Source: Candidatus Omnitrophota bacterium
GTDB lineage: Bacteria > Omnitrophota > Gorgyraeia > Duberdicusellales > Duberdicusellaceae
Assembly (NCBI GenBank): GCA_021163425.1
Contig: JAGGWS010000038.1
Location: 10,418-74,417, forward strand
Reading direction: 5' to 3'
DNA: 64,000 bases
Both the position numbers and the translations under genes were made by a program. The notes under the pieces were generated by a model that ran no database searches, was not told the origin of the DNA, and worked only from the letters and a program-made list of their open reading frames with translations. This document shows, in pieces, positions 24,155 to 62,561 of the stretch (position 1 is its first letter; every line of letters begins with the position of its first letter).

Positions 24155-24191
24155 AACTTGACAAAATGTTTTCAAAAGAAAGTGTCAAGTT
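24155..24191. repeat. palindromic element copy (minus orientation) in the nfnA-nfnB intercistronic junction
   Basis: Minus-strand reading AACTTGACActttcttttgaaaacatttTGTCAAGTT. It shares its spacer with the 42719 copy at 17 of 19 positions, includes the nfnA stop codon, and ends 11 nt before the nfnB ATG. Confidence 0.7.
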
Positions 24192-25039: not shown

Positions 25040-26872
25040 CTACTCTACGGTAACGCTCTTAGCTAAATTTCTGGGCTTATCTACATCGTAACCCTTAAGT
25101 TCAGCAATATAATAAGCTAAAAGTTGTAAGGGGATTATGGTAATAAGAGGCGAGAGTTCTTCTTTAATTTTAGGGATATAAATAATTTGCCGAGAATATT
25201 TTTTAACTTGCTCATCTTCCTCAGTAGCCAAGATTATAATCCTTCCCCGACGAGCGAAAATCTCTTCTACATTAGAAAGCATCTTTGAATATACCGAAGA
25301 GTTATTTGCAATACAGACTACAGCTCTATATTCATCAATTAAAGCAATCGGACCGTGTTTCATTTCTCCGGCAGGATAGCCTTCAGCAGGAATATAAGAA
25401 ATCTCTTTTAACTTTAAAGCCCCTTCTAAGGCAGTAGGATAATTTATATTTCTGCCCAAATAGAGAAAAGCTCCAAAGTTAAGATATTTCTGAGCAATTT
25501 TTCTTATCTCATCTTTACTTTTAACTATCTTTAGTTGACAAGAAGGAATCTTTCTAAGAAGATTAAGATAAGAATTAATAAGGGAGTCAGGAAGAGTTCT
25601 TCTTAATTTCGCTAAATACAAAGAAAGTATCACCAAAACCATAATTTGAGCAGAATAAGCCTTGGTAGAAGCAACACTTATCTCCGGGCCAGCTAAAGTA
25701 TAGAGAACCTTGTCTGATTCTCTAACCAAGGTTGAACCTAAAACATTACAGATAGAAAGAATTTTTGCCCCTCTTTTTTTAGCTAACCTCACCCCAGCTA
25801 AGGTATCAGCTGTTTCTCCGGATTGACTTATAGCTATAAGTAAATCTCCCTTTCTTATTGTAGGCTGTTTGTAACGAAACTCACTGCCCAAATCTACTTC
25901 TACCGGTATATTTAAAAATTTTTCCATTAAGTATTTACCTACTAACCCGGCGTGGTAAGCGGTTCCACAGGCTACTATGTTAATTTTTTGAAGCTTTTTA
26001 AAAAAATCTCTAAAAGCAGTTAATTCTTTTAAGTTAAAATCCTTCTCTTTTAAATAATAAGAGAGAATTTTTTCTAAAACCTTAGGCTGCTCCAATATCT
26101 CTTTAAGCATAAAATGTTTAAAAACACCTTTCTTAACCTCTTCCTTACTAAAGCTTAAAAGCTCTTCTTTAAAAGAAACTTTCCTTCCCTGAAAATCAAT
26201 TACCTTAACTGAATCAGGAGTTAAAACTGCTATTTCTCTATCTTTTAGATAGACTACTCTGCGAGTATCTTCAATAAAGGCTGAACTATCTGAAGCTAAA
26301 AACTTTTCCTCATCTTTTATCCCTACAATTAAAGGAGAATCTAATCTTACCCCTACTAATTTACCTGGCTCATCTTTACTTATCACTGCTAAAGAAAAAG
26401 AACCCTTAAGGAGCAAGACAGTTTTTCTTACAGCTTCTTCTAAATTCTGATGATAATTTCTCTCTATTAAATGAGAAATTATTTCAGTATCAGTGTCAGA
26501 AGAAAACTTACAGCCTTTTTTAAGAAGGTCCTTCTTTAGACTTTCAAAATTTTCAATTATCCCGTTGTGGACTACGGCTATCCTTTTTTTACAGCCTAGG
26601 TGAGGATGGGCATTTTTGTCTGAAGGCACACCATGAGTTGCCCAGCGGGTATGAGCTATCCCTGAGCTCCCGGAAAAAGAAGTCTTACTTACTAATTCTT
26701 CTAAATTTTTTATTTTTCCCTTACGCTTTATAACCTTTAATCTATTCTTATCTAAAACAGCTATTCCTGCTGAATCGTATCCCCGATACTCTAAATTTTT
26801 AAGCCCCTTAATAAGGATTTCTTTAGCTTCTCTTTTTCCAGTATATCCAACTATACCACACATCTTCAGCAC
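25040..26872 (-). CDS. glmS: glutamine--fructose-6-phosphate aminotransferase
   Basis: N-terminal MCGIVGY catalytic Cys and two SIS domains. 610 aa. Confidence 0.9.
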
Positions 26873-27627
26873 ATTCTTATTGGAATACCCTTCTCTTTCA
26901 AATATTTTTTAGCTTCTCTTAAAGAATATTCTCCATAATGAAAGATAGAAGCAACTAACACCGCACTAGCCAAACCCTGAGCAAAAGCCTGATAAAGATG
27001 CTCTAAATTCCCTGCTCCTCCTGAAGCAATTACCGGGATATTCACTCTTTGAGAAACCTTACGGGTAAGTTCTAAATCATAGCCTTGTTTTGTCCCATCT
27101 CTATCCATACTGGTTAAAAGAATTTCTCCTCCTCCTAAAGCCTGAACTTCTTCAGCCCATTCTAAAACATCAATACCTGTAGGTTTTCTTCCTCCGTAGG
27201 TGTAAACTTCCCACTGAGAATCCTCAGTAAGCTTAGCATCAATAGCTACTACAATACACTGACTACCAAATTCCTGAGAAGCCATTTTTATAAAGTCGGG
27301 GTTCTCTACAGCAGAAGTATTAATAGAAACTTTATCTGCACCTGCTCTTAAAAGAGCTCTTATGTCTTCTAAGTTGCTTATCCCTCCTCCCACTGTAAAA
27401 GGGATAAAAACCTGTTCACAGGTTTCTCTTACTACCTCAATTATGGTTTTGCGAGCTTCAAAACTGGCAGTTATATCCAGAAAGACGAGTTCATCAGCGC
27501 CTTCTTTAGCATAGACTTTAGCCTGTTCTACTGGAGAGCCGGCATCTCTTAAATTAAGAAAATTTATCCCTTTTACTACCCGGCCTTCCTTAACATCTAA
27601 ACACGGTATTATCCTCTTGGCTAACAT
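26866..27627 (-). CDS. hisF: imidazole glycerol phosphate synthase cyclase subunit (HisF family)
   Basis: [17 protein letters not shown]-terminal motif and a (beta/alpha)8 fold. No other his genes are present in the window. Confidence 0.8.
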
Positions 27628-31388: not shown

Positions 31389-32889
31389 AAACTACCCTGT
31401 TTACCCCTTTTACCTCATTTATAATCCGATTGGAGATCTTTTCTAATAATTCATAAGGAAGGTGAGCCCAGGAAGCAGTCATTGCATCCTGACTTTCTAC
31501 AGCTCTTATAGCTATAACATTCTCATAAGTTCTCTCATCACCCATAACCCCCACACTCTTAACTGGCAAAAATACACAGAAACTCTGCCAGAGTTTTTCG
31601 TAAAACTTTGCCTTCTTAATCTCTTCAATAAGAATAGCGTCGGCTTCTCTTAAAATATCTAACTTTTCTTTATCCACCTCTCCAATTACTCTAACTGCTA
31701 ACCCTGGACCAGGAAAAGGATGACGGAAAACTACTTCCTCTGGCAACCCCAGCTCTCTTCCCAAAGCCCTTACCTCATCTTTAAATAAAAATTTAAAAGG
31801 TTCTATAAGTTTAAATCCCAATTTTTCGGGAAGCCCTCCTACATTATGGTGGGTCTTTATGGTAGATGAGGGTCCTCCCCAAGCAGATTTAGATTCAATC
31901 ACATCCGGATACAAAGTTCCCTGAGCTAAAAACTTAATTTTACCCAGCTTCTTTGCCTCTTTCTCAAAAACCTTTATAAAAAGATTACCTATTATCTTCC
32001 TCTTTTTTTCAGGGTCAATCACTCCTTTTAAATTCTTCAGGAATAAATCTTCTGCTCTTACTACTTTTAAATTCATCCGGTAATAATTCTTAAACCTCCT
32101 TACCACAGTTTCTCTTTCTCCCTTTCTCAACAAACCATTATCAATAAATATACAGATAAGTTGTTTCCTGATTGCCTTATGAAGTAAGACCGCCAAAACT
32201 GAGGAATCTACTCCTCCGCTTAAAGCGCACAAGACTCTTTCTTTACCAACAGCTCCCCGAATCTCTTTAATTTTAGTCTTTATAAAAGAACTCATCGTCC
32301 AGCTCTTTTTACAACCAGAAATACCCACAACAAAGTTTTCTAAAATCTTTTCACCTTTAGGAGTGTGGACAACTTCAGGATGGAACTGAACTCCGTAAAG
32401 TTTTTTCTTCCTGTTTTCAATCCCGGCATAAAGAGAATTATCTGTTGAGCTAATTACTGAGAAACCTTCAGGTAGCTTAGTAATTTTATCAGCATGACTC
32501 ATCCAGACCACTTCCTGAGAATTTAAGCCCTTAAAAAGGGTTCTTTTTGATTTTACCCTCAAGATAGCTTTACCGTACTCATGGGCTTTTGCTCTTTCAA
32601 CCTCTCCTCCCAAAAGTTTAGCCATAAGTTGAGCTCCATAACATATTCCTAAAACTGGTATACCCAGATTAAAAATATCCCTATCACAAACAGGAGCTGT
32701 TCTTAAAGTTAAACTGGCTGGGCCTCCGGAAAGAATTATAGCTTTAGGATTCCTTTCCCTAAGTTCAGAAGGGGTGATACGGAAATCTACAATCTCCGAA
32801 TACACCCCCAACTCCCTTATCCGGCGAGCAATAAGGTGAGTATATTGAGAACCTAAATCTAAGATAGCCACCCAATCTCTATGCCACAT
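31345..32889 (-). CDS. guaA: GMP synthase (glutamine-hydrolysing)
   Basis: N-terminal glutamine amidotransferase (GICYGAQ), ATP-PPase SGGVDSS motif and a C-terminal dimerisation domain. Confidence 0.9.
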
Positions 32890-42718: not shown

Positions 42719-42755
42719 AACTTGACACTTTATTTTCAAAACATTTTGTCAAGTT
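42719..42755. repeat. 37-bp palindromic intergenic element AACTTGACA-N19-TGTCAAGTT (reference copy)
   Basis: AACTTGACActttattttcaaaacatttTGTCAAGTT. The right arm supplies the TGA stop of the radical-SAM gene. Related copies are listed as separate features. Confidence 0.7.
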
Positions 42756-47637: not shown

Positions 47638-47804
47638 ACCCCCCCTTCTTAGAAACTAATTTTATCACAAAGCCTAAAATCTGTAAAAGGAGATTCCTAT
47701 CTTGGTTATTATATCTTGACTATTGTATCTTGGTTATTAGTTATAGTTACACCGCCAGGTCTAATTAAACTTATTCATTGGAAATTGGAAATTTACATAG
47801 CTGT

Positions 47805-47841
47805 AACTTGACATTTTACTTTCGAAGTATTTTGTCAAGTT
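47805..47841. repeat. palindromic element copy (plus orientation, variant spacer) with AAATTTACATAGCT 5' extension
   Basis: AACTTGACAttttactttcgaagtatttTGTCAAGTT, preceded by GGAAATTGGAAATTTACATAGCTGT and followed by a short octamer array. Confidence 0.65.
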
Positions 47842-47878
47842 TACACGTTTTAACGTTTATATGTTTTCACGTTTCTAT
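47842..47878. repeat. short YACGTTYW octamer array (about 4 units)
   Basis: tacacgtt ttaacgtt tatatgtt ttcacgtt tc, directly abutting the palindromic element. Confidence 0.5.
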
Positions 47879-51858: not shown

Positions 51859-51930
51859 TTTACACGTTTATACGTTTACACGTTCACACGTTTCTACGTT
51901 CACACGTTTCTACGTTTTTACGTTCATACG
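51859..51930. repeat. tandem array of about 9 copies of the 8-bp unit YACGTTYW
   Basis: tacacgtt tatacgtt tacacgtt cacacgtt tctacgtt cacacgtt tctacgtt tttacgtt catacgtt, read off directly. Confidence 0.8.
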
Positions 51931-51966
51931 TTTTAACATATTATTTTGAAAACATTTTGTCAAGTT
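51931..51966. repeat. palindromic element copy with degenerate left arm (TTTAACA) and conserved spacer/right arm
   Basis: ttttaacatattattttgaaaacatttTGTCAAGTT, 7 nt after the stop of the Cas4-like nuclease gene and abutting the octamer array. Confidence 0.6.
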
Positions 51967-53140: not shown

Positions 53141-53455
53141 GTCCTCTTTAGCAAAGTCTTCTCTTTACCACCACAATACCTTCTTTTACAAAATAATTTT
53201 TCTTATCTTCAGTAATATTAAAACGGTCAATAATTGCCTTCTTTATTTTACAACTTCCTTCTATCTCTGTAAAGTCCATAATAATAGAATCAATAATCTG
53301 GCTTTCTTTTATTATTACCCCTCTTCCTATAATAGAGTTTTTATATAAGAATTTTCAACCTGACAGCCTTCACTAATTAAAGAATTAACAAAAGGATAAA
53401 GCCTTTCTCTCCCGCCTCCAGCCATTACCATAGCTAAAACTTTATTTTCCATCTT
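53141..53455 (-). pseudogene. glgC: decayed, internally deleted and frameshifted remnant of glucose-1-phosphate adenylyltransferase
   Basis: Minus-strand ATG at 53455 gives MENKVLAMVMAGGGRERLYPF (GlgC N-terminal nucleotide-binding loop). About 20 aa later it joins LbH-domain-like sequence ...SLISEGCQVENSYI and reaches a stop. A +2 frame continues NSIIGRGVIIKESQIIDSIIM...KKAIIDRFNITEDKKNYFVKEGIVVVKRRLC, matching the GlgC C-terminus. About 300 aa of the middle are missing. Confidence 0.45.
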
Positions 53456-53465
53456 ACAATCTACA

Positions 53466-53604
53466 TTTTACGTTCACACGTTCATACGTTTACACGTTTA
53501 CACGTTTTTACGTTTACACGTTTTTACGTTTACACGTTTTCACGTTTACACGTTCATACGTTTTTACGTTCATACGTTTACACGTTCATACGTTTACACG
53601 TTTT
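53466..53604. repeat. tandem array of about 17 copies of the 8-bp unit YACGTTYW
   Basis: tacgttca cacgttca tacgttta cacgttta cacgtttt tacgttta cacgtttt ... Continuous 8-bp periodicity over about 140 bp, immediately upstream of the glgC remnant start. Confidence 0.85.
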
Positions 53605-53636
53605 AACATATTATTTTGAAAACATTTTACCAAGTT
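53600..53636. repeat. degenerate palindromic element copy (TTTAACA ... TACCAAGTT)
   Basis: ttttaacatattattttgaaaacatttTACCAAGTT. Same spacer as the 51931 copy; both arms are mutated. About 18 nt after the stop of the 1002-aa gene. Confidence 0.5.
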
Positions 53637-53653
53637 ACGCTGGTTATTGGTTA

Positions 53654-56600
53654 TTATCTCTCTATAACAGTCTCTAACCTGTGTTTTACTGCCCTTACTC
53701 CTGAATATTCTGCCTCGGTTATTACTTCATAAACATCCGAACGGGTAGTAATAAAAGGGCAAATCAATTTAAAATTATTAATCTTTTGAAACTCAGTTAA
53801 GCCTAAAGCTGTGGTTTCTAACAAATCTCCTATACCCAGCCTACGTTTGCTTCTTTCTCCAAAGGGCCTCTGTGAAATTATTCCAGAATTAGAGGGTAAT
53901 AGAAGATTCAAAATCTCTTTTCTTGCTGTATTTATATTTATCCTCCCACTGACTATAAATTCTGGCTCCAATATAAAATTTATAATCTTAAGAGGTCCGT
54001 CTTCTTCATTTCTCACTTTAATTTCTAAACTACCTCCAGACTCAATCTCAATATTTCCGTAATAAAGGCAACCCTTATGAAAATAAAAAGGGCCTAAATA
54101 GTCAAAAGTATCTGCCTGCTCGGTTTTTACTGCTATACTTACAGAAGAACTATCTTCCTCGGCTAAAATTTTAAGAAAATAACTCCCTTGAGGAATATTA
54201 GAAAATCTCCACAATCCCCATTCCCCTCTGCGAAAAGAAAAGAAACTATCGTCTTCTTCTTTAAAATTGCCTTCTACAAAAGAAGATATCCCTAAATGCT
54301 TTACAAAAGAAGTAAATCTATCTGAAAGAAGAGCTATATCCCTTAAACTAAATCTCTTCCAGGGAAGACTGGAGGGAATTTTCTCGGCATAGCCAATATT
54401 TATAAGAGGCTGATTTAAAACGACTTGTTCTCTTACATTATGATAAAAAACCTCCAGAGTTTTGGGGTCAATCTCTTTTATCCCTGAGTTATCATTATGC
54501 TCTGAAGGTGTAGCTTTTGCCTCAGCTTCAGAAAAAAACCAGCCATCGAATATTCCATCTCCATCAGCATCAGTAAGAAGAGTGGGATCTGAACGCTCTA
54601 AACTTACATAATTTCTTATCTGAGAAGAAGTATATTCTACTATATCCACAATTTCTCCCTGAGGATTCTTTAAAGCAATAGTGGCTGAGCTGTCAGGGAT
54701 AATATCATCACACCCTTCTATCTTACCGCTAAACTCAAGTTGAACTGCTTTCGTTCCCCAGCTCTCCTGGAAAGAAATCCCATTACTTCTTAAATAAGAA
54801 GGAGAGCTTCGGTCATCTTTATCTATAGCCAGGATTAAATGTTCATAGGGCCTGATTTTTGTGCCTTGAGGAATAATTGCCGGCCAGCCTAAGACCGCTT
54901 TTTTTTCTTGAGTTACCTCTATACTGAAATTGCCTATATCTATCTCTCGGGGAGTAATATTCAGAATTTCGATGAATTCGGCATCGGGTTCTTGAGAAAC
55001 AACTATTTTTTTAAAAGTAGAAACTTCAGTAAGAGAATTATTCTGAATTTTTATTAATAAATCTCCATCTATATATACCGGGTAAGGAAAAACCATCCCA
55101 TCTCTAACCCCCTTTAAAGATCTTCCGGAAATAACTACATCTCCAATATAACCTCCTGTTGTATTAGCAAAAAATTTTATATAGAAATAACCCCTTCTCC
55201 CTACTGAAAAAACCCATCTTCCCTCACCCTCAATTCCACTGGCTAAATCTTTATTCTCGTAATATCCACCCTTCCAGACCCAGCTTCCTCCAGGATTCTG
55301 AGATTTCTCTACCAGAAATTCTAAAGAAGGCTTAATCATCACCTCGTTTATCACTAAAGATTCTCTTCCTCTTAAAGAGGTATGAACCAGCCCTTCTCTA
55401 TTTTCAGGACTTACAAGCTCTATATATTCCAGAGCACAATCTCTATCTTCAAAAGGTTTTATCCTAAATTCTAATTCACCTCCCTCTACCTTAACAGGCA
55501 AATACAACCCCTCTCCATTGTAAACATCACAATCTTCTATATCCTGAACTGAAACATAACCTATACCTAAATCCTCAAAAGGAGAATAAAAAAAGCAAAA
55601 ATATTCTCCATCGGGGATATTTAAGTTCTGGAATTTAAAAGTAGAAGGGGCTCCTCCCCGGGGAGCATAAAAATAATTCCCGCTCTTTCTAAAACTTCCT
55701 CCTGAAGAAGAAACAGGCTTTATCCTCTTATAAAACTTGTCTAAAACAGTCTGGGATAAATCTTTATCCTGAAAATCAATAAAATTAGCTGCTTTTTGGA
55801 AAGGAAACCTTACTCCTGAGCTCAAAAAACCCATAAGAACATCCTGAAAAGAAGCAGATAAAGCAATCCTCCTCCTTCCAAAACTATCTAATTCCTTATC
55901 TTTAGAATAGACCGTAAAATAATTCCTGAATCTTAAACCTGAAGGTAAAGTTAAAAACTCCCGAGTCTCCTCGGGAGCTAAAAATAACCTATCGTCACCA
56001 AAACCTTCCTCATCAGGCTCATCTATTCCTTCATCTTTTTCATCAACAACTCCATCTAAATCATTATCAATCCCATCAGAAATTAATATCAAATTATCAG
56101 AATCATCATCGTAATCTTCCAATCCTGGTTTCTCATCAGAACCCCGCCTTAACCTTATTAAAGAAGTGCTTTTAGAAATTCCCAGAAAAGAAAATAGAGA
56201 ATTTATATTAAGTTCAGAAAGGTCCAAGCCATAGCGGAAAGAGCTTTCTCCACAATAATTCAAATTAAGCTTGGAAGCCTCATCTAAAATTTGAACACCA
56301 AATCGGCCGTAAAGCCTTCCCTCGAAATTTTTAACTTCAAAGTATCTACTTTCTTTTATCCCATCCTTATCTAAATCTAAATCTTCACCTTTCAGCTGAG
56401 TGTAAAAAGAATCTTCAAGGCTATCAGAAAAATTTTCTTTTTTATCCTGCTTCAAGAGTTCTCTGCCCAGAGTTAAACCTGCCTCTGCTAAATACTGAGC
56501 TTTAACATTATCTAAGTAGATGCGGGAATATCTTACTTCATAAAGGCTAAAAAGAAGAAGAGAAAACCCAGTAATAGCAAGAACAGAGAGAACAGTTATA

Positions 56601-56662: not shown

Positions 56663-57014
56663 ATTCTTCTGAAAGCTTAGGAGTAGTTGAAGAATTAGAT
56701 TCTACCTTCAGGATAAGTTTTTTTAAATTCACTCCTTCTAAGACTTCCTCTTCTCCTAAAGAAATCTGCCAATCGAAATTTCCTTCTTTGCCTTCTGCTT
56801 CTTCAACTATATTATAAGTCTTTAACTCTTCTAACTTCTTCTTTGCTAAGAAAGCAGTATCCATCAATAGTTTTGATAATCTAAGTTGTTTCAGAGCCAG
56901 AGGAAACATATAGAAAACAGAGAGAAGCCCTCCAGCCAGGATAGCTATAGCAACCAAAATCTCAATAAGGGTAAAACTCCGCTGGCTCCTAAATCTTATC
57001 TTCCCCATCCTCAT
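56625..57014 (-). CDS. prepilin-type N-terminal domain pseudopilin (GspI-like)
   Basis: RSFTLIEILVAIAILAGG class III signal/methylation motif. 129 aa. Confidence 0.6.
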   Translation of the reverse strand: MRMGKIRFRSQRSFTLIEILVAIAILAGGLLSVFYMFPLALKQLRLSKLLMDTAFLAKKKLEELKTYNIVEEAEGKEGNFDWQISLGEEEVLEGVNLKKLILKVESNSSTTPKLSEEFVTYLPFEEKSD

Positions 57015-58101: not shown

Positions 58102-58658
58102 CTTCCCACAGGAATATTTATTAGTTCCTGATAATTCTCTCTACGGCCTTTATAACTTAAAGTAAGCTCTGTCTTGACTGCTAAAGGTAATTCTTTATAA
58201 GAATTTTCCCATTTTTCTCCATCAAAAAAACTAAAGTTCAGACTCTCTATACTGGAGCTTAATACCTCTTCTTTATCAAAAGTATTGAAGTTAAAATCAC
58301 ATTTTGATTCTCTTCTTACTAAACTTTTTTTCTCAGGAAGAAAAATATAGCCTATCTCCCTAAGTCCTTCGGAATCAGGATAAACAAAAAATAAAGCCTG
58401 CTTATCTCCTTTAAATATTTCTCCTTCCCCCCGGATAATCTCTTCATTTGCTCTTAGAGCAGAAGAAAGTTCTCTGGATATCACCCAGAATACCCTCTTT
58501 AGATTCTGGTATCTCTGGGCTAAAACTTGAGCCTCCTGATAAGAAAGAAGGGCACTTCTAAAAATTGTGCCCACAATAGTTATCACCGCAACAAAAATCC
58601 CTATAGCAATTAGAACCTCTATTAAGGTGAAACTAATCTTTCTCAGAAAAATACTCAT
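58098..58658 (-). CDS. prepilin-type pseudopilin (GspJ/GspH-like)
   Basis: MSIFLRKISFTLIEVLIAIGIF prepilin motif. The track start at 58679 is a TTG; the ATG at 58658 is the likely start. Confidence 0.6.
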   Translation of the reverse strand: MSIFLRKISFTLIEVLIAIGIFVAVITIVGTIFRSALLSYQEAQVLAQRYQNLKRVFWVISRELSSALRANEEIIRGEGEIFKGDKQALFFVYPDSEGLREIGYIFLPEKKSLVRRESKCDFNFNTFDKEEVLSSSIESLNFSFFDGEKWENSYKELPLAVKTELTLSYKGRRENYQELINIPVGR

Positions 58659-58667
58659 AGCTAAGGA

Positions 58668-58695
58668 TATAACTTTCAAAACATTTTGTCAAATT
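58668..58695. repeat. partial palindromic element (conserved spacer plus right arm TGTCAAATT)
   Basis: tataactttcaaaacatttTGTCAAATT between the stop of the 510-aa gene (58700) and the start of the pseudopilin gene (58658). The left arm is not recognisable. Confidence 0.45.
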
Positions 58696-58699
58696 ACGC

Positions 58700-60232
58700 T
58701 TATTTTCTCTTAAAGAAAAGTATTTTCTGGAGTTTTTCTATAAAGGTCTCTTCTTTCACAGTCCAACTCCATTGAGCAGGGGTGGGGTCTTCCTCATAGA
58801 GAGAAATTAACCCATCTCCATCTATATCTAAGCCAGCTTTGACTTTGAATAAGTGAACTCCCAAACTTAGACCAGAAAAACTCACGCTTTTTTCTTTCTT
58901 CCAGGAAGACCACTCCGAACCATCTAAAGAATAACTGAACAAACACCCCTCACGGGAAGCCTGATAATAAAATGTAGCTTCTTTCTCAGGAGTTAAACTG
59001 GAAGGACCACTTATTATTCGAGTATCAGGAGCCAATACTACTAAGTCAATATCATCAGAAAATACAGGAGATACATTTCCAGCATAATCTTCAAACTTAA
59101 TATAAACTGTCTTCTTCCCGGATATATCCGGCTCTTTCAGAAGCCAATCCTCTATTAAAGCCTTGAATTCCAGCGGATTATCCATCTCCGTATCAAAAAC
59201 ACCATCATTGGATATGTAGATATACTTTATTCCACTTACCTCATCAGAAGCTGTAATTTTTAGAGTAACATAAGGAGAATTAGTTACAGGGTCATCATTA
59301 TTTATCACCACACTACCCTGAGGGGAATGAGTATCTACAATAAAGCTCCAGGCTTTGCTAACCTGGTTTCCTATGTTGTCCTCTGCCTTTATTAAAACTA
59401 TATTTTCTCCATCGGGCAAACTTCCCTTATAGGAATAAATATTCTTATCCTCAGCAAACTTTCCAGAGACTTCTTCTCCATTCAGGAAAAACTGTAAACT
59501 ACTTAAGTTGACCCCTGAATGTAAATCTTCTACCTTACAACTTATCTCCACAAAGCTCTGGTTAATAAGCTCAGAAACAGCCGGGGTTAACTCAGTTACA
59601 GAAGGATGAGTAGTATCTACCCAAATCTCAAAGCTTAGAGGTTGCCCCCAGACTTTTCCTCCTCCATAAGGGGCTACATAAAAGATATGTTTTCCATCAG
59701 AGAGGCTGTCCTGAGGATACTGATAAAAAGAAAACTCTGTATCTACCTCCCCATCAGGAAGACTATCTAAAGAGAAACTAAACCCTTTTATTAAAACAGG
59801 TGGGTTAATAACAACAATCCAGTAAAAATAGGGGTCATTATCTTTCTGCCATACTGACGGAGAAATTTCAAAGCCACCCAGATGAGTTTTTGCACGAAGT
59901 TCAGCTATTTCATAGAGCACTTCTCCTACCAGGACAGGCCAGTAACAACTAAAATTAATCCCTATCTGAGTACTTGCAACTTCTACAGGCACTGAAAACA
60001 ACTGTCCGACAACAAAGTAAGTAAGGCGGCGCTCACTAAAAGAAGCAAAACCCAGACTGGTGCCTATACTTATAAGCTCAATCTCATAATTAGAAGAGGC
60101 AGCCTGCTCAGCATATACCCCTGATACAATATAAAGGATAAAGAATAAAATAATAATTTGAAATTTGAAATTTGAAATTTGAAATTTATTACTTTGAAAT
60201 TTGAAATTTGAAATTTGAAATTTATTACTCAT
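58700..60232 (-). CDS. secreted protein of unknown function with a repeat-encoded N-terminus
   Basis: The N-terminus MSNKFQISNFKFQ-SNKFQISNFKFQ is encoded by a 36-bp tandem duplication, then a hydrophobic signal-like segment IIILFFILYIVSGVYA-EQ. The ATG overlaps the TGA of the upstream ATPase gene (ATGA). Confidence 0.45.
   Translation of the reverse strand: MSNKFQISNFKFQSNKFQISNFKFQIIILFFILYIVSGVYAEQAASSNYEIELISIGTSLGFASFSERRLTYFVVGQLFSVPVEVASTQIGINFSCYWPVLVGEVLYEIAELRAKTHLGGFEISPSVWQKDNDPYFYWIVVINPPVLIKGFSFSLDSLPDGEVDTEFSFYQYPQDSLSDGKHIFYVAPYGGGKVWGQPLSFEIWVDTTHPSVTELTPAVSELINQSFVEISCKVEDLHSGVNLSSLQFFLNGEEVSGKFAEDKNIYSYKGSLPDGENIVLIKAEDNIGNQVSKAWSFIVDTHSPQGSVVINNDDPVTNSPYVTLKITASDEVSGIKYIYISNDGVFDTEMDNPLEFKALIEDWLLKEPDISGKKTVYIKFEDYAGNVSPVFSDDIDLVVLAPDTRIISGPSSLTPEKEATFYYQASREGCLFSYSLDGSEWSSWKKEKSVSFSGLSLGVHLFKVKAGLDIDGDGLISLYEEDPTPAQWSWTVKEETFIEKLQKILFFKRK
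60156..60227. repeat. perfect 36-bp tandem duplication, each unit containing (TTTGAAA)x4 + TTTATTAC
   Basis: tttgaaatttgaaatttgaaatttgaaatttattac occurs twice back-to-back. It encodes the first 24 residues of the 58700-60232 protein. Confidence 0.85.
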
Positions 60233-62128: not shown

Positions 62129-62173
62129 ACTAAAAGTATAGGCCGTCTCTTCTCCTGCTCAACGTCGGCAGAT

Positions 62174-62322
62174 TCACACGTTCACACGTTCTCACGTTCA
62201 CACGTTCATACGTTCTCACATTCACACGTTCACACGTTCTCACGTTCATACGTTCTCACGTTCATACGTTCTCACGTTCATACGTTCACACGTTCACACG
62301 TTTTTACATTTATACGTTCTAC
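62174..62322. repeat. tandem array of about 19 copies of the 8-bp unit YACGTTYW
   Basis: cacgttca cacgttct cacgttca cacgttca tacgttct cacattca ... The longest array in the window. Lies in the 800-bp non-coding region between the PilB-like gene and hup. Confidence 0.85.
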
Positions 62323-62525
62323 GAAACCGCTTTAAACTTTTATCCCAATTATTATAATACGAGTTCTATTTTTTGAAAAGTGCTTAGTTTTTGGATACAG
62401 AAAAAAAGACGCCGGCATACACTTAAACTCAAACTCCGGAGTATTCTACCAACTATTAGTTATTGATTATTGATATTGATTGAGGATCGCCCTCGATTCC
62501 TCAAAAATTTATTGAAAATTTACAT

Positions 62526-62561
62526 AGCTTGACATTTATTCTGAAAAAATTCTGTCAAATT
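62526..62561. repeat. palindromic element variant AGCTTGACA-N18-TGTCAAATT with AAATTTACATAGCT 5' extension
   Basis: gaaaatttacatAGCTTGACAtttattctgaaaaaattcTGTCAAATTacgttct. It shares the 5' extension with the 47805 copy and is followed by one ACGTT unit. Confidence 0.55.

What the first reader, a model, noticed from the sequence alone, without database searches (positions are those of the whole stretch)
42719..42755. Recurrent 37-bp palindromic element AACTTGACA-N19-TGTCAAGTT parked right after stop codons at seven sites
Directly read copies lie at 24155-24191, 42719-42755, 47805-47841, 51931-51966, 53600-53636, 58668-58695 and 62526-62561. The 19-nt spacer (CTTTNTTTTSAAAACATTT) is itself conserved in five copies, so this is a sequence family rather than just a symmetric operator. 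Every copy lies 0-40 nt downstream of the stop of the preceding minus-strand gene, and therefore upstream of the next. In two copies the arm supplies the stop codon (...AAC TTG A gives nfnA ...LVT* and the radical-SAM gene ...WLT*). Both arms contain TTGACA, but no -10 hexamer follows at 16-18 nt, so they are not simple sigma70 promoters. No U-tract follows, so they are not intrinsic terminators, although an RNA hairpin with a 9-bp stem and 19-nt loop is possible. Candidate roles are a REP/BIME-like genome-specific repeat, a binding site for a global dimeric DNA-binding protein, or an RNA processing/stability element between cistrons. I cannot place it in any described motif family from memory.
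Basis: seen in the sequence. Interest (0 to 1): 0.8.

Follow-up and report, generated by a model that had tools for sequence, protein, structure and literature searches.

The report
REP palindromes of an Omnitrophota transposase
The repeated 37-base palindrome is most likely a REP element, a small hairpin repeat that a domesticated single-copy transposase (RAYT) spreads between genes; this is a known kind of system, seen here in an undescribed family from the uncultured phylum Omnitrophota.

Summary
The repeat is real. Three perfect AACTTGACA-N19-TGTCAAGTT copies occur where 0.03 are expected, plus four degenerate relatives. All seven lie in the 7% of the window that is non-coding.

It is not specific to this genome. 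Exact-arm copies occur in a ~91%-identical Guaymas Omnitrophota MAG and in more than 120 metagenome loci with 29-57% GC. In those loci the inner 19 nt differ by lineage but stay self-complementary, so covariation is strong.

The decisive result comes from related contigs. There, a 284-aa protein is flanked on both sides by doublets of this element. That protein matches Pfam Y1_Tnp and, below cut-off, the NCBIfam REP-associated tyrosine transposase model. It carries the HUH and Y-x3-NP motifs, and its best structural match is E. coli TnpA-REP (4er8). Homologues at 60% and 41% identity are flanked by the same arms. More distant ones carry their own palindromes or repeats.

I therefore read the element as a REP, with BIME-like mosaics around it, belonging to a RAYT that has an extra C-terminal HTH domain. 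It is not an operator, a terminator or a plain promoter. However, three truncated copies read TTGACA/TTGGTA-N17-TATGTT/TATCCT and may act as promoters.

No RAYT lies inside the window. Mobilisation and any role for the host are inferred.

The parts
24155..24191 (+). Intact REP, a perfect 37-bp palindrome (43 bp counting the CGT...ACG flanks). It lies between nfnA (stop TGA inside the arm) and nfnB. It is the only copy whose AAAT-first strand is opposite to the genes.
   Evidence: Identical over 37/37 bases at the orthologous site of the ~91% relative (L031). Folds as ssDNA at -11.8 kcal/mol, z = -5.0.
42719..42755 (-). Intact REP. The arm supplies the TGA stop of the radical-SAM/SPASM gene. 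It lies 101 nt upstream of the Na+/H+ exchanger gene.
   Evidence: It differs by one base from a REP that flanks the RAYT gene in L163 (AAATCTTTTGAAAATAAAG versus AAATGTTTTGAAAATAAAG).
47805..47841 (-). REP with perfect arms and a diverged spacer. It lies 46 nt after the RsmF-like stop and is preceded by a short run of 8-mers.
   Evidence: Folds as ssDNA at -9.4 kcal/mol, z = -5.5.
51931..51966 (-). Truncated REP: left arm and spacer kept, right arm replaced. It reads TTGACA-N17-TATGTT and is followed at once by an 8-bp tandem array.
   Evidence: The orthologous site in the relative (L070/L011) holds a full palindrome and no array.
53600..53636 (-). Truncated REP with a mutated arm (AACTTGGTA). 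It reads TTGGTA-N17-TATGTT and is followed by about 17 units of the 8-bp array.
58668..58695 (-). Truncated REP (AATTTGACA plus spacer) that reads TTGACA-N17-TATCCT. The ATG of a pilin-like gene (MSIFLRKISFTLIEVLIAI) lies 5 nt after the -10-like hexamer.
   Evidence: In the relatives L097 (95% identical) and L061 the same site holds a full palindrome, then 8-10 bp, then this half element.
62526..62561 (-). Degenerate REP (AGCTTGACA / TGTCAAATT, 18-nt spacer) in the divergent region between the HU-like gene (plus strand) and the T2SS/T4P ATPase operon (minus strand).
51859..51933 (-). 8-bp tandem array (AACGTNNN, about 9 units) abutting the truncated REP. It is a companion module of the mosaic and its role is unknown.
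53467..53603 (-). 8-bp tandem array (about 17 units) abutting the truncated REP.
62173..62320 (-). 8-bp tandem array (about 18 units) lying about 200 nt downstream, on the minus strand, of the degenerate REP.

Best explanation
The element is a REP (repetitive extragenic palindrome). Its full unit is T-AACTTGACA-N19-TGTCAAGTT-A, usually preceded by (C)TG.

Its partner is a RAYT-type HUH/Y1 single-strand DNA transposase of about 285-300 aa with an extra C-terminal helix-turn-helix domain. This protein family is annotated almost only in Candidatus Omnitrophota.

Inferred mechanism, by analogy with E. coli TnpA-REP and IS608:
- One strand of the element folds into a hairpin when it is single-stranded, for instance on the lagging-strand template.
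- The RAYT recognises the hairpin and the bases at its foot, cuts, and rejoins.
- This copies or moves single REPs and 45-bp-period doublets into permissive sites.

In this tightly packed genome, permissive sites are essentially the few bases at or just after stop codons. The unit begins T-AAC-TTGA, so it restores a TAA or TGA stop in two of the three reading frames, which would make such insertions harmless.

Recombination among copies then builds and erodes BIME-like mosaics, in which REPs sit next to 7-mer and 8-mer arrays and GC-rich hairpins. Each arm contains a perfect -35 hexamer. A copy that loses its right arm can therefore become a TTGACA-N17-TAnnnT promoter, and three copies in the window look like that.

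Shown: the repeat family, its hairpin covariation, its extragenic and oriented placement, its turnover between close relatives, and its physical linkage to RAYT genes in relatives.

Inferred: cleavage and mobilisation by the RAYT, presence of a RAYT in the window's own genome, and any benefit to the host.
For: 1. The repeat is far beyond chance: 3 perfect copies against 0.03 expected, and 7 of 7 copies in the 7.2% of non-coding DNA (p about 1e-8).

2. Linkage to a RAYT gene.
- L106/L094/L163-L165 carry a 284-aa ORF with REP doublets on both sides.
- The ORF matches Pfam Y1_Tnp at 36.7 bits, above the cut-off of 23. It matches NCBIfam NF047646, REP-associated tyrosine transposase, at E = 1.1e-15 over the whole model.
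- H68-x-H70 and Y127-x3-N131 are invariant, and P132 nearly so, in 25 homologues.
- An AlphaFold model (pLDDT 83.7) has as its best PDB match 4er8_A, TnpA-REP bound to a REP hairpin (E = 9.9e-6, TM 0.76). That ranks ahead of the IS608 and ISDra2 transposases.

3. The linkage recurs across divergence.
- RAYT homologues at 60% identity (L102, L167/L168) and 41% (L058) are flanked by elements with the same arms.
- Homologues at 49% (L169) and 45% (L177) are flanked by palindromes of the same size but different sequence: AAATTACACA...TGTGTAATTT and CTTATGCAACA...TGTTGCATAAG.
- The 51% homologue (L176) is flanked by 46-bp repeats ending in TGTAAAGTTA, one upstream and two in tandem downstream.

4. 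The RAYT gene keeps its neighbours between 60%-identical homologues: glycosyltransferase, RAYT, BNR/sortilin-like gene, ManC, GT9, HisG. This is the vertically inherited, single-copy style typical of RAYTs (PMC5581495).

5. A hairpin is under selection.
- The inner 19 nt were not constrained by my search. They pair at 5.6 of 9 positions against 2.65 in shuffles, and 35% of sequences reach 7 or more pairs against 0.4%.
- There are 123 cells with changes on both sides against 39.8 in shuffles, 0 of 500 shuffles as high.
- The compensated arm variant AACTTTACA...TGTAAAGTT recurs in at least seven loci.

6. Orientation. The AAAT-first strand runs in the same direction as the flanking genes at 27 sites and opposite at 5. 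Some of these sites are the same locus seen in two contigs.

7. Turnover between ~91%-identical genomes. A mosaic of about 200 bp carrying the REP is present in L010 where two genes overlap in the window. About 205 extra bp lie next to the nfnA/B copy in L031. Full palindromes in relatives correspond to truncated copies in the window.

8. Distribution. In one genome per species the only enriched genomes are Omnitrophota MAGs. None of the five viral-contig matches shows the family's features.
Against: - No RAYT gene lies in the 64-kb window, and I could not show one in the window's own genome or in the B32_G15 MAG.
- The NCBIfam REP-transposase score of 57.8 is below that model's cut-off of 80. 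Sequence-profile similarity to 4er8 is weak (E = 0.19).
- The foot of the hairpin reads GTAA, not the canonical REP tag GT[AG]G.
- Doublets are direct repeats, not the inverted pairs that define REPINs.
- The RAYT carries an HTH domain, like subclass 2.1 of Quentin et al. 2018 (PMC6006769), and that subclass was reported to have no REPs.
- The L010 insertion is bounded by a duplication of about 20 bp. HUH/Y1 transposition is not expected to make one.
- One RAYT homologue (L175) showed no obvious flanking palindrome.
- Covariation of a palindrome cannot separate a DNA hairpin from an RNA hairpin or from a symmetric protein site.
- The arms in all metagenome hits were fixed by my search pattern.
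Confidence: 0.8

Rival explanations
1. The element is an operator for a global dimeric or tetrameric DNA-binding protein, possibly the HTH domain of the RAYT-like protein acting as a regulator. Binding to the two arms would control the downstream genes.
For: The sequence is symmetric and its arms are strongly conserved across lineages. Some copies end 4-25 nt before a start codon. The partner protein has a C-terminal HTH.
Against: - Copies sit at or on the stop codon of the upstream gene, at variable distances (11 to about 470 nt) from the next start.
- Several lie between convergent genes, where there is nothing to regulate.
- One lies between the two subunit genes nfnA and nfnB.
- The genes served are unrelated housekeeping genes.
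- The inner 19 nt change sequence while keeping their pairing, which fits a structure better than a base-specific site.
- Copies come and go between ~91%-identical genomes.
Confidence: 0.06
2. The element works mainly in RNA. It would be a hairpin at the 3' end of a gene or between cistrons that blocks exonucleases, is cut by RNase III, or terminates transcription without a U-tract.
For: Placement just after stops, co-orientation with transcription at 27 sites against 5, stable hairpins in the higher-GC lineages (-18 to -21 kcal/mol as DNA), and the known effects of E. coli REPs on mRNA stability (established knowledge; PMC3733652 abstract).
Against: - No U-tract follows the element on the sense strand in the window.
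- In the ~52% GC lineage the A-tract lies 5' on the sense strand, so the T-tract is on the antisense strand.
- G-U pairs are rare, so both strands stay equally paired, as expected for DNA.
- The low-GC version is a weak hairpin: -6.7 kcal/mol for the 42719 copy.
- Rfam gives no match.
- This reading does not explain the linkage to RAYT genes. It can still be a side effect of a REP.
Confidence: 0.08
3. The elements are promoters: the TTGACA arm would serve as the -35 box of the downstream gene.
For: - The arms are TTGACA or TTTACA, the two commonest -35 forms.
- Three truncated copies read TTGACA/TTGGTA-N17-TATGTT/TATCCT.
- At 58668 the -10-like hexamer lies 5 nt before the ATG of a pilin-like gene, and the same layout is conserved in L097 and L061.
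- The organism uses canonical promoters, for example TTGACA-N17-TATAAT at about 22450 and TTGACA-N17-TATAAA for the HU-like gene.
Against: - The palindromic copies have AGTGTC or AATGTC where the -10 should be.
- Many copies lie between convergent genes or inside operons.
- Promoter-like consensus matches are no more frequent here than in shuffled sequence: 52 against 50.1.
- At best this explains the truncated derivatives. I put about 0.3 on those three being active promoters.
Confidence: 0.04
4. The element is a minimal MITE made of two terminal inverted repeats and moved by a DDE transposase that targets TA (IS630/Tc1-like), with the flanking T...A being a TA duplication.
For: The bases next to the arms are T (81 of 129) and A (81 of 129). 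Read as TA + ACTTGACA...TGTCAAGT + TA, this fits a TA duplication. Presence and absence differ between relatives.
Against: - T...A equally well just extends the palindrome, and the flanks are often complementary further out, for example CCCT...AGGG and CGT...ACG.
- No DDE transposase was seen next to any copy, whereas a Y1 transposase was seen repeatedly.
- No clean empty site with a single TA was found.
Confidence: 0.02

Closest known systems
REP / BIME elements with their RAYT (TnpA-REP), arranged as 'REPtrons' in E. coli, Pseudomonas and Stenotrophomonas (PMC3479197, PMC3116915, PMC5581495, PMC6006769)
   Same: - A palindrome of about 37-39 bp confined to DNA between genes, often just after stops.
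- Dispersed copies, with doublets and mosaics built with other short motifs.
- A Y1/HUH transposase gene flanked by the repeats.
- The HUH and Y-x3-NP motifs, and TnpA-REP as best structural match.
- The transposase gene keeps its neighbours and appears vertically inherited.
- Repeat and transposase change together in more distant lineages.
   Different: - The foot reads (CT)GTAA, not GT[AG]G.
- The stem is AT-rich, and in this lineage it has a large internal loop.
- Doublets are direct repeats at a 45-bp period, not inverted REPIN pairs.
- The RAYT is about 120 aa longer and has a C-terminal HTH.
- The arm sequence is kept across RAYTs down to about 41% identity and across 29-57% GC, which is broader than the species- or genus-level REP families described.
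TnpA-Y1 subclass 2.1 / TIRYT proteins: Y1 core plus a C-terminal HTH (Quentin et al. 2018, PMC6006769)
   Same: Class-2 Y-motif (Y---NP), protein length, and a C-terminal HTH with weak matches to HTH_23, HTH_28 and HTH_7.
   Different: That subclass was reported to lack REP-like structures near the gene. Some members have terminal inverted repeats of the form GGGG[AT][CG]A[CG]. Here the gene sits in a REPtron-like arrangement. I did not test subclass membership by phylogeny.
Correia elements (CREE) of Neisseria
   Same: Small palindromic repeats between genes that can create promoters, and that lie next to T...A. Both points about Correia elements rest on established knowledge, not on a test here.
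   Different: Correia elements are 100-155 bp with 26-bp inverted ends, an IHF site and no linked Y1 transposase. The element here is 37-39 bp and is linked to a RAYT.
Subterminal hairpins of IS200/IS605 elements and their derived PATEs
   Same: Hairpins recognised as single-stranded DNA by a Y1 transposase, with strand-biased placement. IS608 and ISDra2 TnpA are the next-best structural matches.
   Different: There is no IS structure and no tnpB. The transposase is not multi-copy, and the protein lines up better with TnpA-REP than with TnpA of IS200.

Membership tests
REP/RAYT system (REPtron) | A short (about 20-40 bp) imperfect palindrome able to form a stem-loop | tested here: met
   A 9-bp perfect outer stem in three window copies. 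ssDNA folds of -6.7 to -11.8 kcal/mol here and -18 to -21 kcal/mol in higher-GC lineages, z from -2.9 to -8.2. Inner-stem covariation.
REP/RAYT system (REPtron) | Many dispersed copies confined to DNA between genes | tested here: met
   7 of 7 copies in the 7.2% of non-coding DNA of the window. Nine matches to the 18-mer probe in the fragmentary B32_G15 MAG. Four or more in a 43-kb contig. The genome-wide count could not be measured.
REP/RAYT system (REPtron) | A cognate Y1 transposase gene flanked by the repeats | tested here: met
   Met in relatives: L106/L094/L163-165, L167/168, L102 and L058 with the same arms; L169, L177 and L176 with their own repeats. Not shown for the window's own genome: there is no RAYT in the window.
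REP/RAYT system (REPtron) | The transposase has the HUH motif, a catalytic Tyr in Y-x3-NP, and a TnpA-REP fold | tested here: met
   H68, H70, Y127 and N131 invariant, P132 nearly so. Pfam Y1_Tnp above its cut-off. Foldseek best match 4er8_A at E = 9.9e-6.
REP/RAYT system (REPtron) | The protein passes the curated NCBIfam equivalog model for REP-associated tyrosine transposase | tested here: not met
   57.8 bits against a cut-off of 80, although E = 1.1e-15 and the whole model is aligned. The protein is a divergent relative, not an equivalog.
REP/RAYT system (REPtron) | A conserved GT[AG]G (or CGTC) tag at the foot of the hairpin | tested here: not met
   The foot reads (c)(t)G-T-A-A: G at -2 in 22 of 39, T at -1 in 38 of 39, followed by AA. 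That is three of four positions of GTAG. Quentin et al. also describe REP classes without the tag (PMC6006769).
REP/RAYT system (REPtron) | Copies organised as inverted doublets (REPINs) or BIME mosaics | tested here: inconclusive
   Doublets exist but are direct repeats with a 45-bp period and a conserved linker AGGGCNGT. Mosaics with 7-mer and 8-mer arrays and a GC hairpin are present. No inverted REPIN pairs were seen.
REP/RAYT system (REPtron) | The RAYT binds, cuts and rejoins single-stranded REP DNA | not testable with these tools
   Needs biochemistry.
Intrinsic (Rho-independent) terminator | A GC-rich hairpin followed by a U-tract on the transcribed strand | tested here: not met
   No T-run follows any window copy on the minus strand. 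In the ~52% GC lineage the T-run is on the antisense strand.
Sigma-70 promoter | A -35 hexamer, a 16-18 bp spacer, and a -10 hexamer with A at position 2 and T at position 6 | tested here: not met
   Palindromic copies have AGTGTC or AATGTC at the -10 position. The criterion is met only by the truncated copies at 51931, 53600 and 58668.
Integron attC site | R''/R' boxes RYYYAAC...GTTRRRY, arrays of promoterless cassettes, and an integron integrase | tested here: not met
   The AAC...GTT ends resemble the boxes, but the flanks fit at only 5-6 of 7 positions. The flanking genes are housekeeping genes (nfnAB, queA, rsmF, antiporters). No integrase is present.
DNA uptake sequence (DUS/USS) pairs | The short motif is also very frequent as single copies, including inside genes | tested here: not met
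   Every AACTTGACA or TGTCAAGTT in the 64 kb lies within one of the element copies. None is isolated or inside a gene.

The most novel reading that the evidence does not exclude
This could be the first REPtron for the HTH-bearing branch of Y1 transposases (subclass-2.1-like), a branch previously reported to have no REPs. It would be a lineage-wide, anciently maintained REP-RAYT partnership in Omnitrophota. The REP arm (AACTTGACA, which is also a perfect -35 box) is held constant across RAYTs down to about 41% identity and across 29-57% GC. One possible reason is that the HTH reads the double-stranded arm. Decaying copies would then be repeatedly recruited as promoters, including one for a leaderless pilin-like gene and ones driving the 8-nt-repeat arrays.
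Probability: 0.3. Interest if true: 0.55.

Novelty: new member of a known kind. Interest (0 to 1): 0.42.

Why it matters
REP-RAYT systems have been studied almost only in Proteobacteria. Their persistence, as a single-copy domesticated transposase tending a population of hairpins, is still debated.

A well-marked family in the uncultured, small-genome phylum Omnitrophota extends the phenomenon in three ways:
- It extends it to very compact genomes, where the repeats are squeezed onto stop codons.
- It links REPs to an HTH-bearing Y1 transposase type that was thought not to have them.
- It gives a sequence signature (TAACTTGACA-N19-TGTCAAGTTA) useful for binning and for checking Omnitrophota MAGs.

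It also offers concrete cases of a repeat turning into promoter-like sequence. For annotation, it explains a recurrent intergenic motif that might otherwise be mistaken for a regulon operator.

Tried and rejected
- Rfam at gathering threshold and a tRNA scan of the window found nothing.
- Full-text searches for 'Omnitrophota + palindromic' and for the 9-mer found nothing relevant.
- Sigma-70 promoter for the palindromic copies: rejected, no -10 at any spacing from 16 to 19.
- ECF-type promoter (AAC...CGTC): the spacings do not fit.
- Intrinsic terminator: no U-tract on the sense strand. The A/T-tracts in the ~52% GC lineage point the wrong way.
- DUS/USS-like uptake signal: no isolated arms.
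- attC, parS, dif, CIRCE, CtsR, IHF and MetJ-box resemblances were compared from memory and judged not to fit.
- CRISPR: the spacing is wrong (units 45 bp apart).
- Many metagenome hits with the exact arms are something else. Examples are the TTCTAGAATGTCAAGTAAA group, arrays of CTTGACAAGT, and hits inside long ORFs. I set these aside.
- phmmer of the RAYT against PDB sequences found nothing. A profile gave only E = 0.19 to 4er8. The structural comparison was needed.
- I tried to tie a RAYT to the window's own sample through identical proteins. The contigs came from other samples.
- The RAYT homologue in L175 showed no clear flanking palindrome.
- A viral-contig scan gave 5 matches, none with the family's features.
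Full report
**Observation**

A search for AACTTGACA-N19-TGTCAAGTT with up to three mismatches finds three perfect copies, at 24155-24191, 42719-42755 and 47805-47841. Shuffles give 0.03 on average, and none of 100 shuffles reaches three.

On the minus strand, six copies read (cgt)AACTTGACAAAATGTTTT[C/G]AAAA.... The 24155 copy reads that way on the plus strand.

Only three copies are true palindromes:
- 62526-62561 has degenerate arms and an 18-nt spacer.
- 51931, 53600 and 58668 keep the left arm and spacer, but the right arm is replaced.
- In those three the replacement gives TTGACA/TTGGTA-N17-TATGTT/TATCCT.

**Setting**

The window is bacterial: it encodes GreA, QueA, a T2SS/T4P ATPase and an HU-like protein. 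It has 35% GC and 93% coding density, and nearly all genes are on the minus strand. All seven copies fall in the 7.2% of non-coding DNA.

Positions relative to genes:
- Two copies supply the TGA stop of the upstream gene (ORF ends at 24185 and 42749).
- Three lie 4-17 nt after a stop, and one lies 46 nt after.
- The 62526 copy has no upstream minus-strand gene. It sits in a divergent region next to the HU-like gene.

Several copies abut 8-bp tandem arrays (AACGTNNN, up to about 18 units) and other short repeats. Rfam and the tRNA scan find nothing.

**Relatives**

I scanned one genome per species with AACTTGACAAAATGTTTT. Only two Guaymas MAGs named Candidatus Omnitrophota hold family members: B32_G15 with nine matches and B7_G16 with one. 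The other roughly 31 hits are single matches, many of them ordinary -35 regions.

B32_G15 is about 91% identical to the window and syntenic with it. Comparison of orthologous sites shows turnover:
- The nfnA/B copy is identical over 37/37 bases, but the relative has about 205 extra bp of 7-mer arrays and a GC hairpin beside it.
- Where two genes overlap in the window (32879-32889), the relative carries a mosaic of about 200 bp. It holds a half element, short repeats and a full element, and is bounded by a duplication of about 20 bp.
- Where the window has truncated copies (51966, 58695), relatives have full palindromes. At 58695 the relatives have a full palindrome followed 8-10 bp later by the half element.

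**A broad family with a covarying stem**

Contig GC ranges from 29 to 57%.

The inner 19 nt, which the search did not constrain, fall into lineage-specific types. Many are themselves perfect palindromes, for example CTTTGAACGTCGTTCAAAG, CTTGAGACAATGTCTCAAG and CTTTTGACAATGTCAAAAG.

Evidence that pairing is maintained:
- Over 92 distinct 37-mers the inner part pairs at 5.6 of 9 positions, against 2.65 after shuffling.
- 35% of them reach 7 or more pairs, against 0.4% of shuffles.
- On 46 family-like sequences that I picked by eye, 123 cells show changes on both sides, against 39.8 in shuffles (0 of 500 as high). G-U pairs are rare.
- The compensated arm variant AACTTTACA...TGTAAAGTT recurs in at least seven loci.
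- The bases next to the arms are T and A in 81 of 129 distinct copies overall, and in 38 of 39 copies of the low-GC family. In that family the 5' flank is most often CTGT.

Most copies lie between genes, at or within a few bases of a stop. They occur both between same-direction genes and between convergent genes. In the low-GC family the AAAT-first strand runs with the flanking genes at 27 sites and against them at 5. Some of these sites are the same locus seen in two contigs.

**The partner protein**

In L106 (and equally in L094 and L163-L165) a 284-aa ORF has a doublet of the element on each side. The two units of a doublet are 45 bp apart and joined by the linker AGGGCTGT.

The protein's properties:
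- It matches Pfam Y1_Tnp above the cut-off and has a C-terminal HTH.
- It matches NCBIfam 'REP-associated tyrosine transposase' over the whole model at E = 1.1e-15, but at 57.8 bits, below the cut-off of 80.
- In 25 homologues H68, H70, Y127 and N131 are invariant and P132 nearly so. This is the HUH motif plus the Y---NP signature of class-2 TnpA-Y1 proteins (PMC6006769).
- An AlphaFold model (pLDDT 83.7) finds 4er8_A, E. coli TnpA-REP bound to a REP hairpin, as best PDB match (E = 9.9e-6, target TM 0.76). IS608 and ISDra2 TnpA come next.
- Sequence-only comparison with the PDB is weak.

**The linkage recurs**

| Locus | RAYT identity to L106 | Flanking repeats |
|---|---|---|
| L102, L167/L168 | 60% | same arms |
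| L058 | 41% | same arms, different inner type |
| L169 (named WOR-3) | 49% | AAATTACACA-N-TGTGTAATTT |
| L177 | 45% | 43-bp CTTATGCAACA...TGTTGCATAAG |
| L176 | 51% | 46-bp repeats ending TGTAAAGTTA, one upstream and two in tandem downstream |
| L175 | 44% | none obvious |

The family has 315 homologues at E <= 1e-5, and most named ones are Candidatus Omnitrophota. The gene keeps the same neighbours between 60%-identical homologues. That fits the vertically inherited, single-copy behaviour described for RAYTs (PMC5581495). No homologue lies in the window. I could not tie one to the window's own sample.

**Interpretation**

Taken together, the element is a REP and the mosaics around it are BIME-like. 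The partner is a RAYT with an added HTH.

By analogy with TnpA-REP and IS608 (PMC3479197, PMC6006769), I infer the following:
- The RAYT recognises the hairpin in single-stranded DNA and cuts near its foot. The CT-GTAA sequence before the stem parallels the CT cleavage site and GTAG tag of E. coli. This parallel rests partly on my own recollection of that work.
- The orientation bias may reflect exposure of one strand on the lagging-strand template. It cannot be separated from transcription here, because nearly all genes point the same way.
- The unit begins T-AAC-TTGA, so it restores a stop in two of three frames. That would make insertion at the end of a gene harmless, and would explain the 'parking' on stop codons in a 93%-coding genome.

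**Rivals**

- Regulon operator. This fits poorly with convergent-gene and within-operon sites, variable distance to starts, unrelated flanking genes, and a stem that changes sequence but keeps pairing.
- Terminator. Excluded by the lack of a sense-strand U-tract. In the ~52% GC lineage the A-tract is 5' on the sense strand.
- RNA stability or processing effect. It remains possible as a by-product, as for E. coli REPs.
- Promoter. The palindromic copies are not sigma-70 promoters, although the organism uses canonical ones. The three truncated copies are good consensus matches. Such matches are no commoner in this region than in shuffles, so their activity is unproven.
- TA-targeting MITE. It cannot be excluded from the T...A flanks alone, and nothing else supports it.

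**Novelty**

The kind of system is well known. I found no description of this sequence family. It differs from textbook REPs in four ways:
- the foot reads GTAA rather than GT[AG]G;
- the doublets are direct rather than inverted;
- the arm is conserved unusually widely;
- the RAYT carries an HTH, like subclass 2.1 of Quentin et al., for which no REPs were found.

I did not test membership of that subclass. I therefore rate this as a new member of a known kind, with a moderate chance that it is a real variant.

Noticed in passing
window 47840-47878, 51859-51933, 53467-53603, 62173-62320: Tandem arrays with an 8-bp period (AACGTGTG / AACGTATG / AACGTAAA; up to about 18 units) lie between genes. 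At two sites they start right after a promoter-like truncated REP. Such arrays were found only in the window, in L116 (93-95% identical) and in L049. Whether they are transcribed, or bound in the way MetJ binds its 8-bp boxes, is unknown.
   Followed up: partly
L031 4496-4632 and L053 10958-11094 (at window 26865-26873); L061 6183-6303 (at window 56969-56975): The relatives carry an insertion of about 120-136 bp that is absent from the window. It has inverted ends (CCCCGCACCAC...GTGGTGCGGGG), an internal GC hairpin, and TTTAC on both sides. It appears to be a second, unrelated miniature mobile element, inserted at a gene junction and inside an ORF.
   Followed up: partly
L092 10560-11260: A contig with about 50% GC that carries the 37-bp element also encodes a second, shorter RAYT-like protein without an HTH (motifs HIHLIL and YIHLNP). 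It is flanked by a different palindrome, GTACAACC-CCGG-GGTTGTAC. Two REP/RAYT systems therefore appear to coexist in one genome.
   Followed up: partly
window 53380-53470: There is a remnant of the N-terminus of a nucleotidyltransferase (MENKVLAMVMAGGGRERLYPF...). Relatives (L011, L070) have about 870 more bp here and an intact 408-aa gene. The window's copy is a deletion pseudogene lying just downstream of the REP and array.
   Followed up: partly
window 58651-58695: The pilin-like gene most likely starts at the ATG at about 58651 (MSIFLRKISFTLIEVLIAI), not at the TTG at 58679. That ATG lies only 5 nt after the TATCCT hexamer, which suggests a leaderless mRNA.
   Followed up: partly
window 60155-60229: A 7-bp repeat (AAATTTC on the minus strand), duplicated as a 36-bp unit, sits at the very start of the Big_13-domain ORF, right after the T2SS ATPase stop. 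If translated it gives NKFQISNFKFQS twice, ahead of a signal-peptide-like stretch. It resembles the TTGAAAA/TTTTCAA 7-mer arrays found beside REPs in the relatives.
   Followed up: no
L011 1502-2070 / L070 8807-9375 (at window 48838): The relative has a 568-bp insertion encoding a protein of about 180 aa, between the RsmF-like gene and the radical-SAM gene. These two genes overlap in the window. No REP is involved.
   Followed up: no
window 47698-47739, 53641-53655, 62460-62481: Further short repeats of the AATAACCAAGATA / TGGTTAT / TTATTGA type occur in the same intergenic regions as the REPs. A related TATTGGT array lies in the L010 mosaic.
   Followed up: no
L047, L077, L089, L099, L101, L108, L111, L120, L121, L140, L148, L150: A separate conserved locus in low-GC metagenome contigs matches the arm pattern through repeated ATGTCAAGT units (AACTTGACATTCTAGAATGTCAAGTAAATGTCAAGTT). 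It is not palindromic inside and is probably unrelated to the REP family.
   Followed up: no
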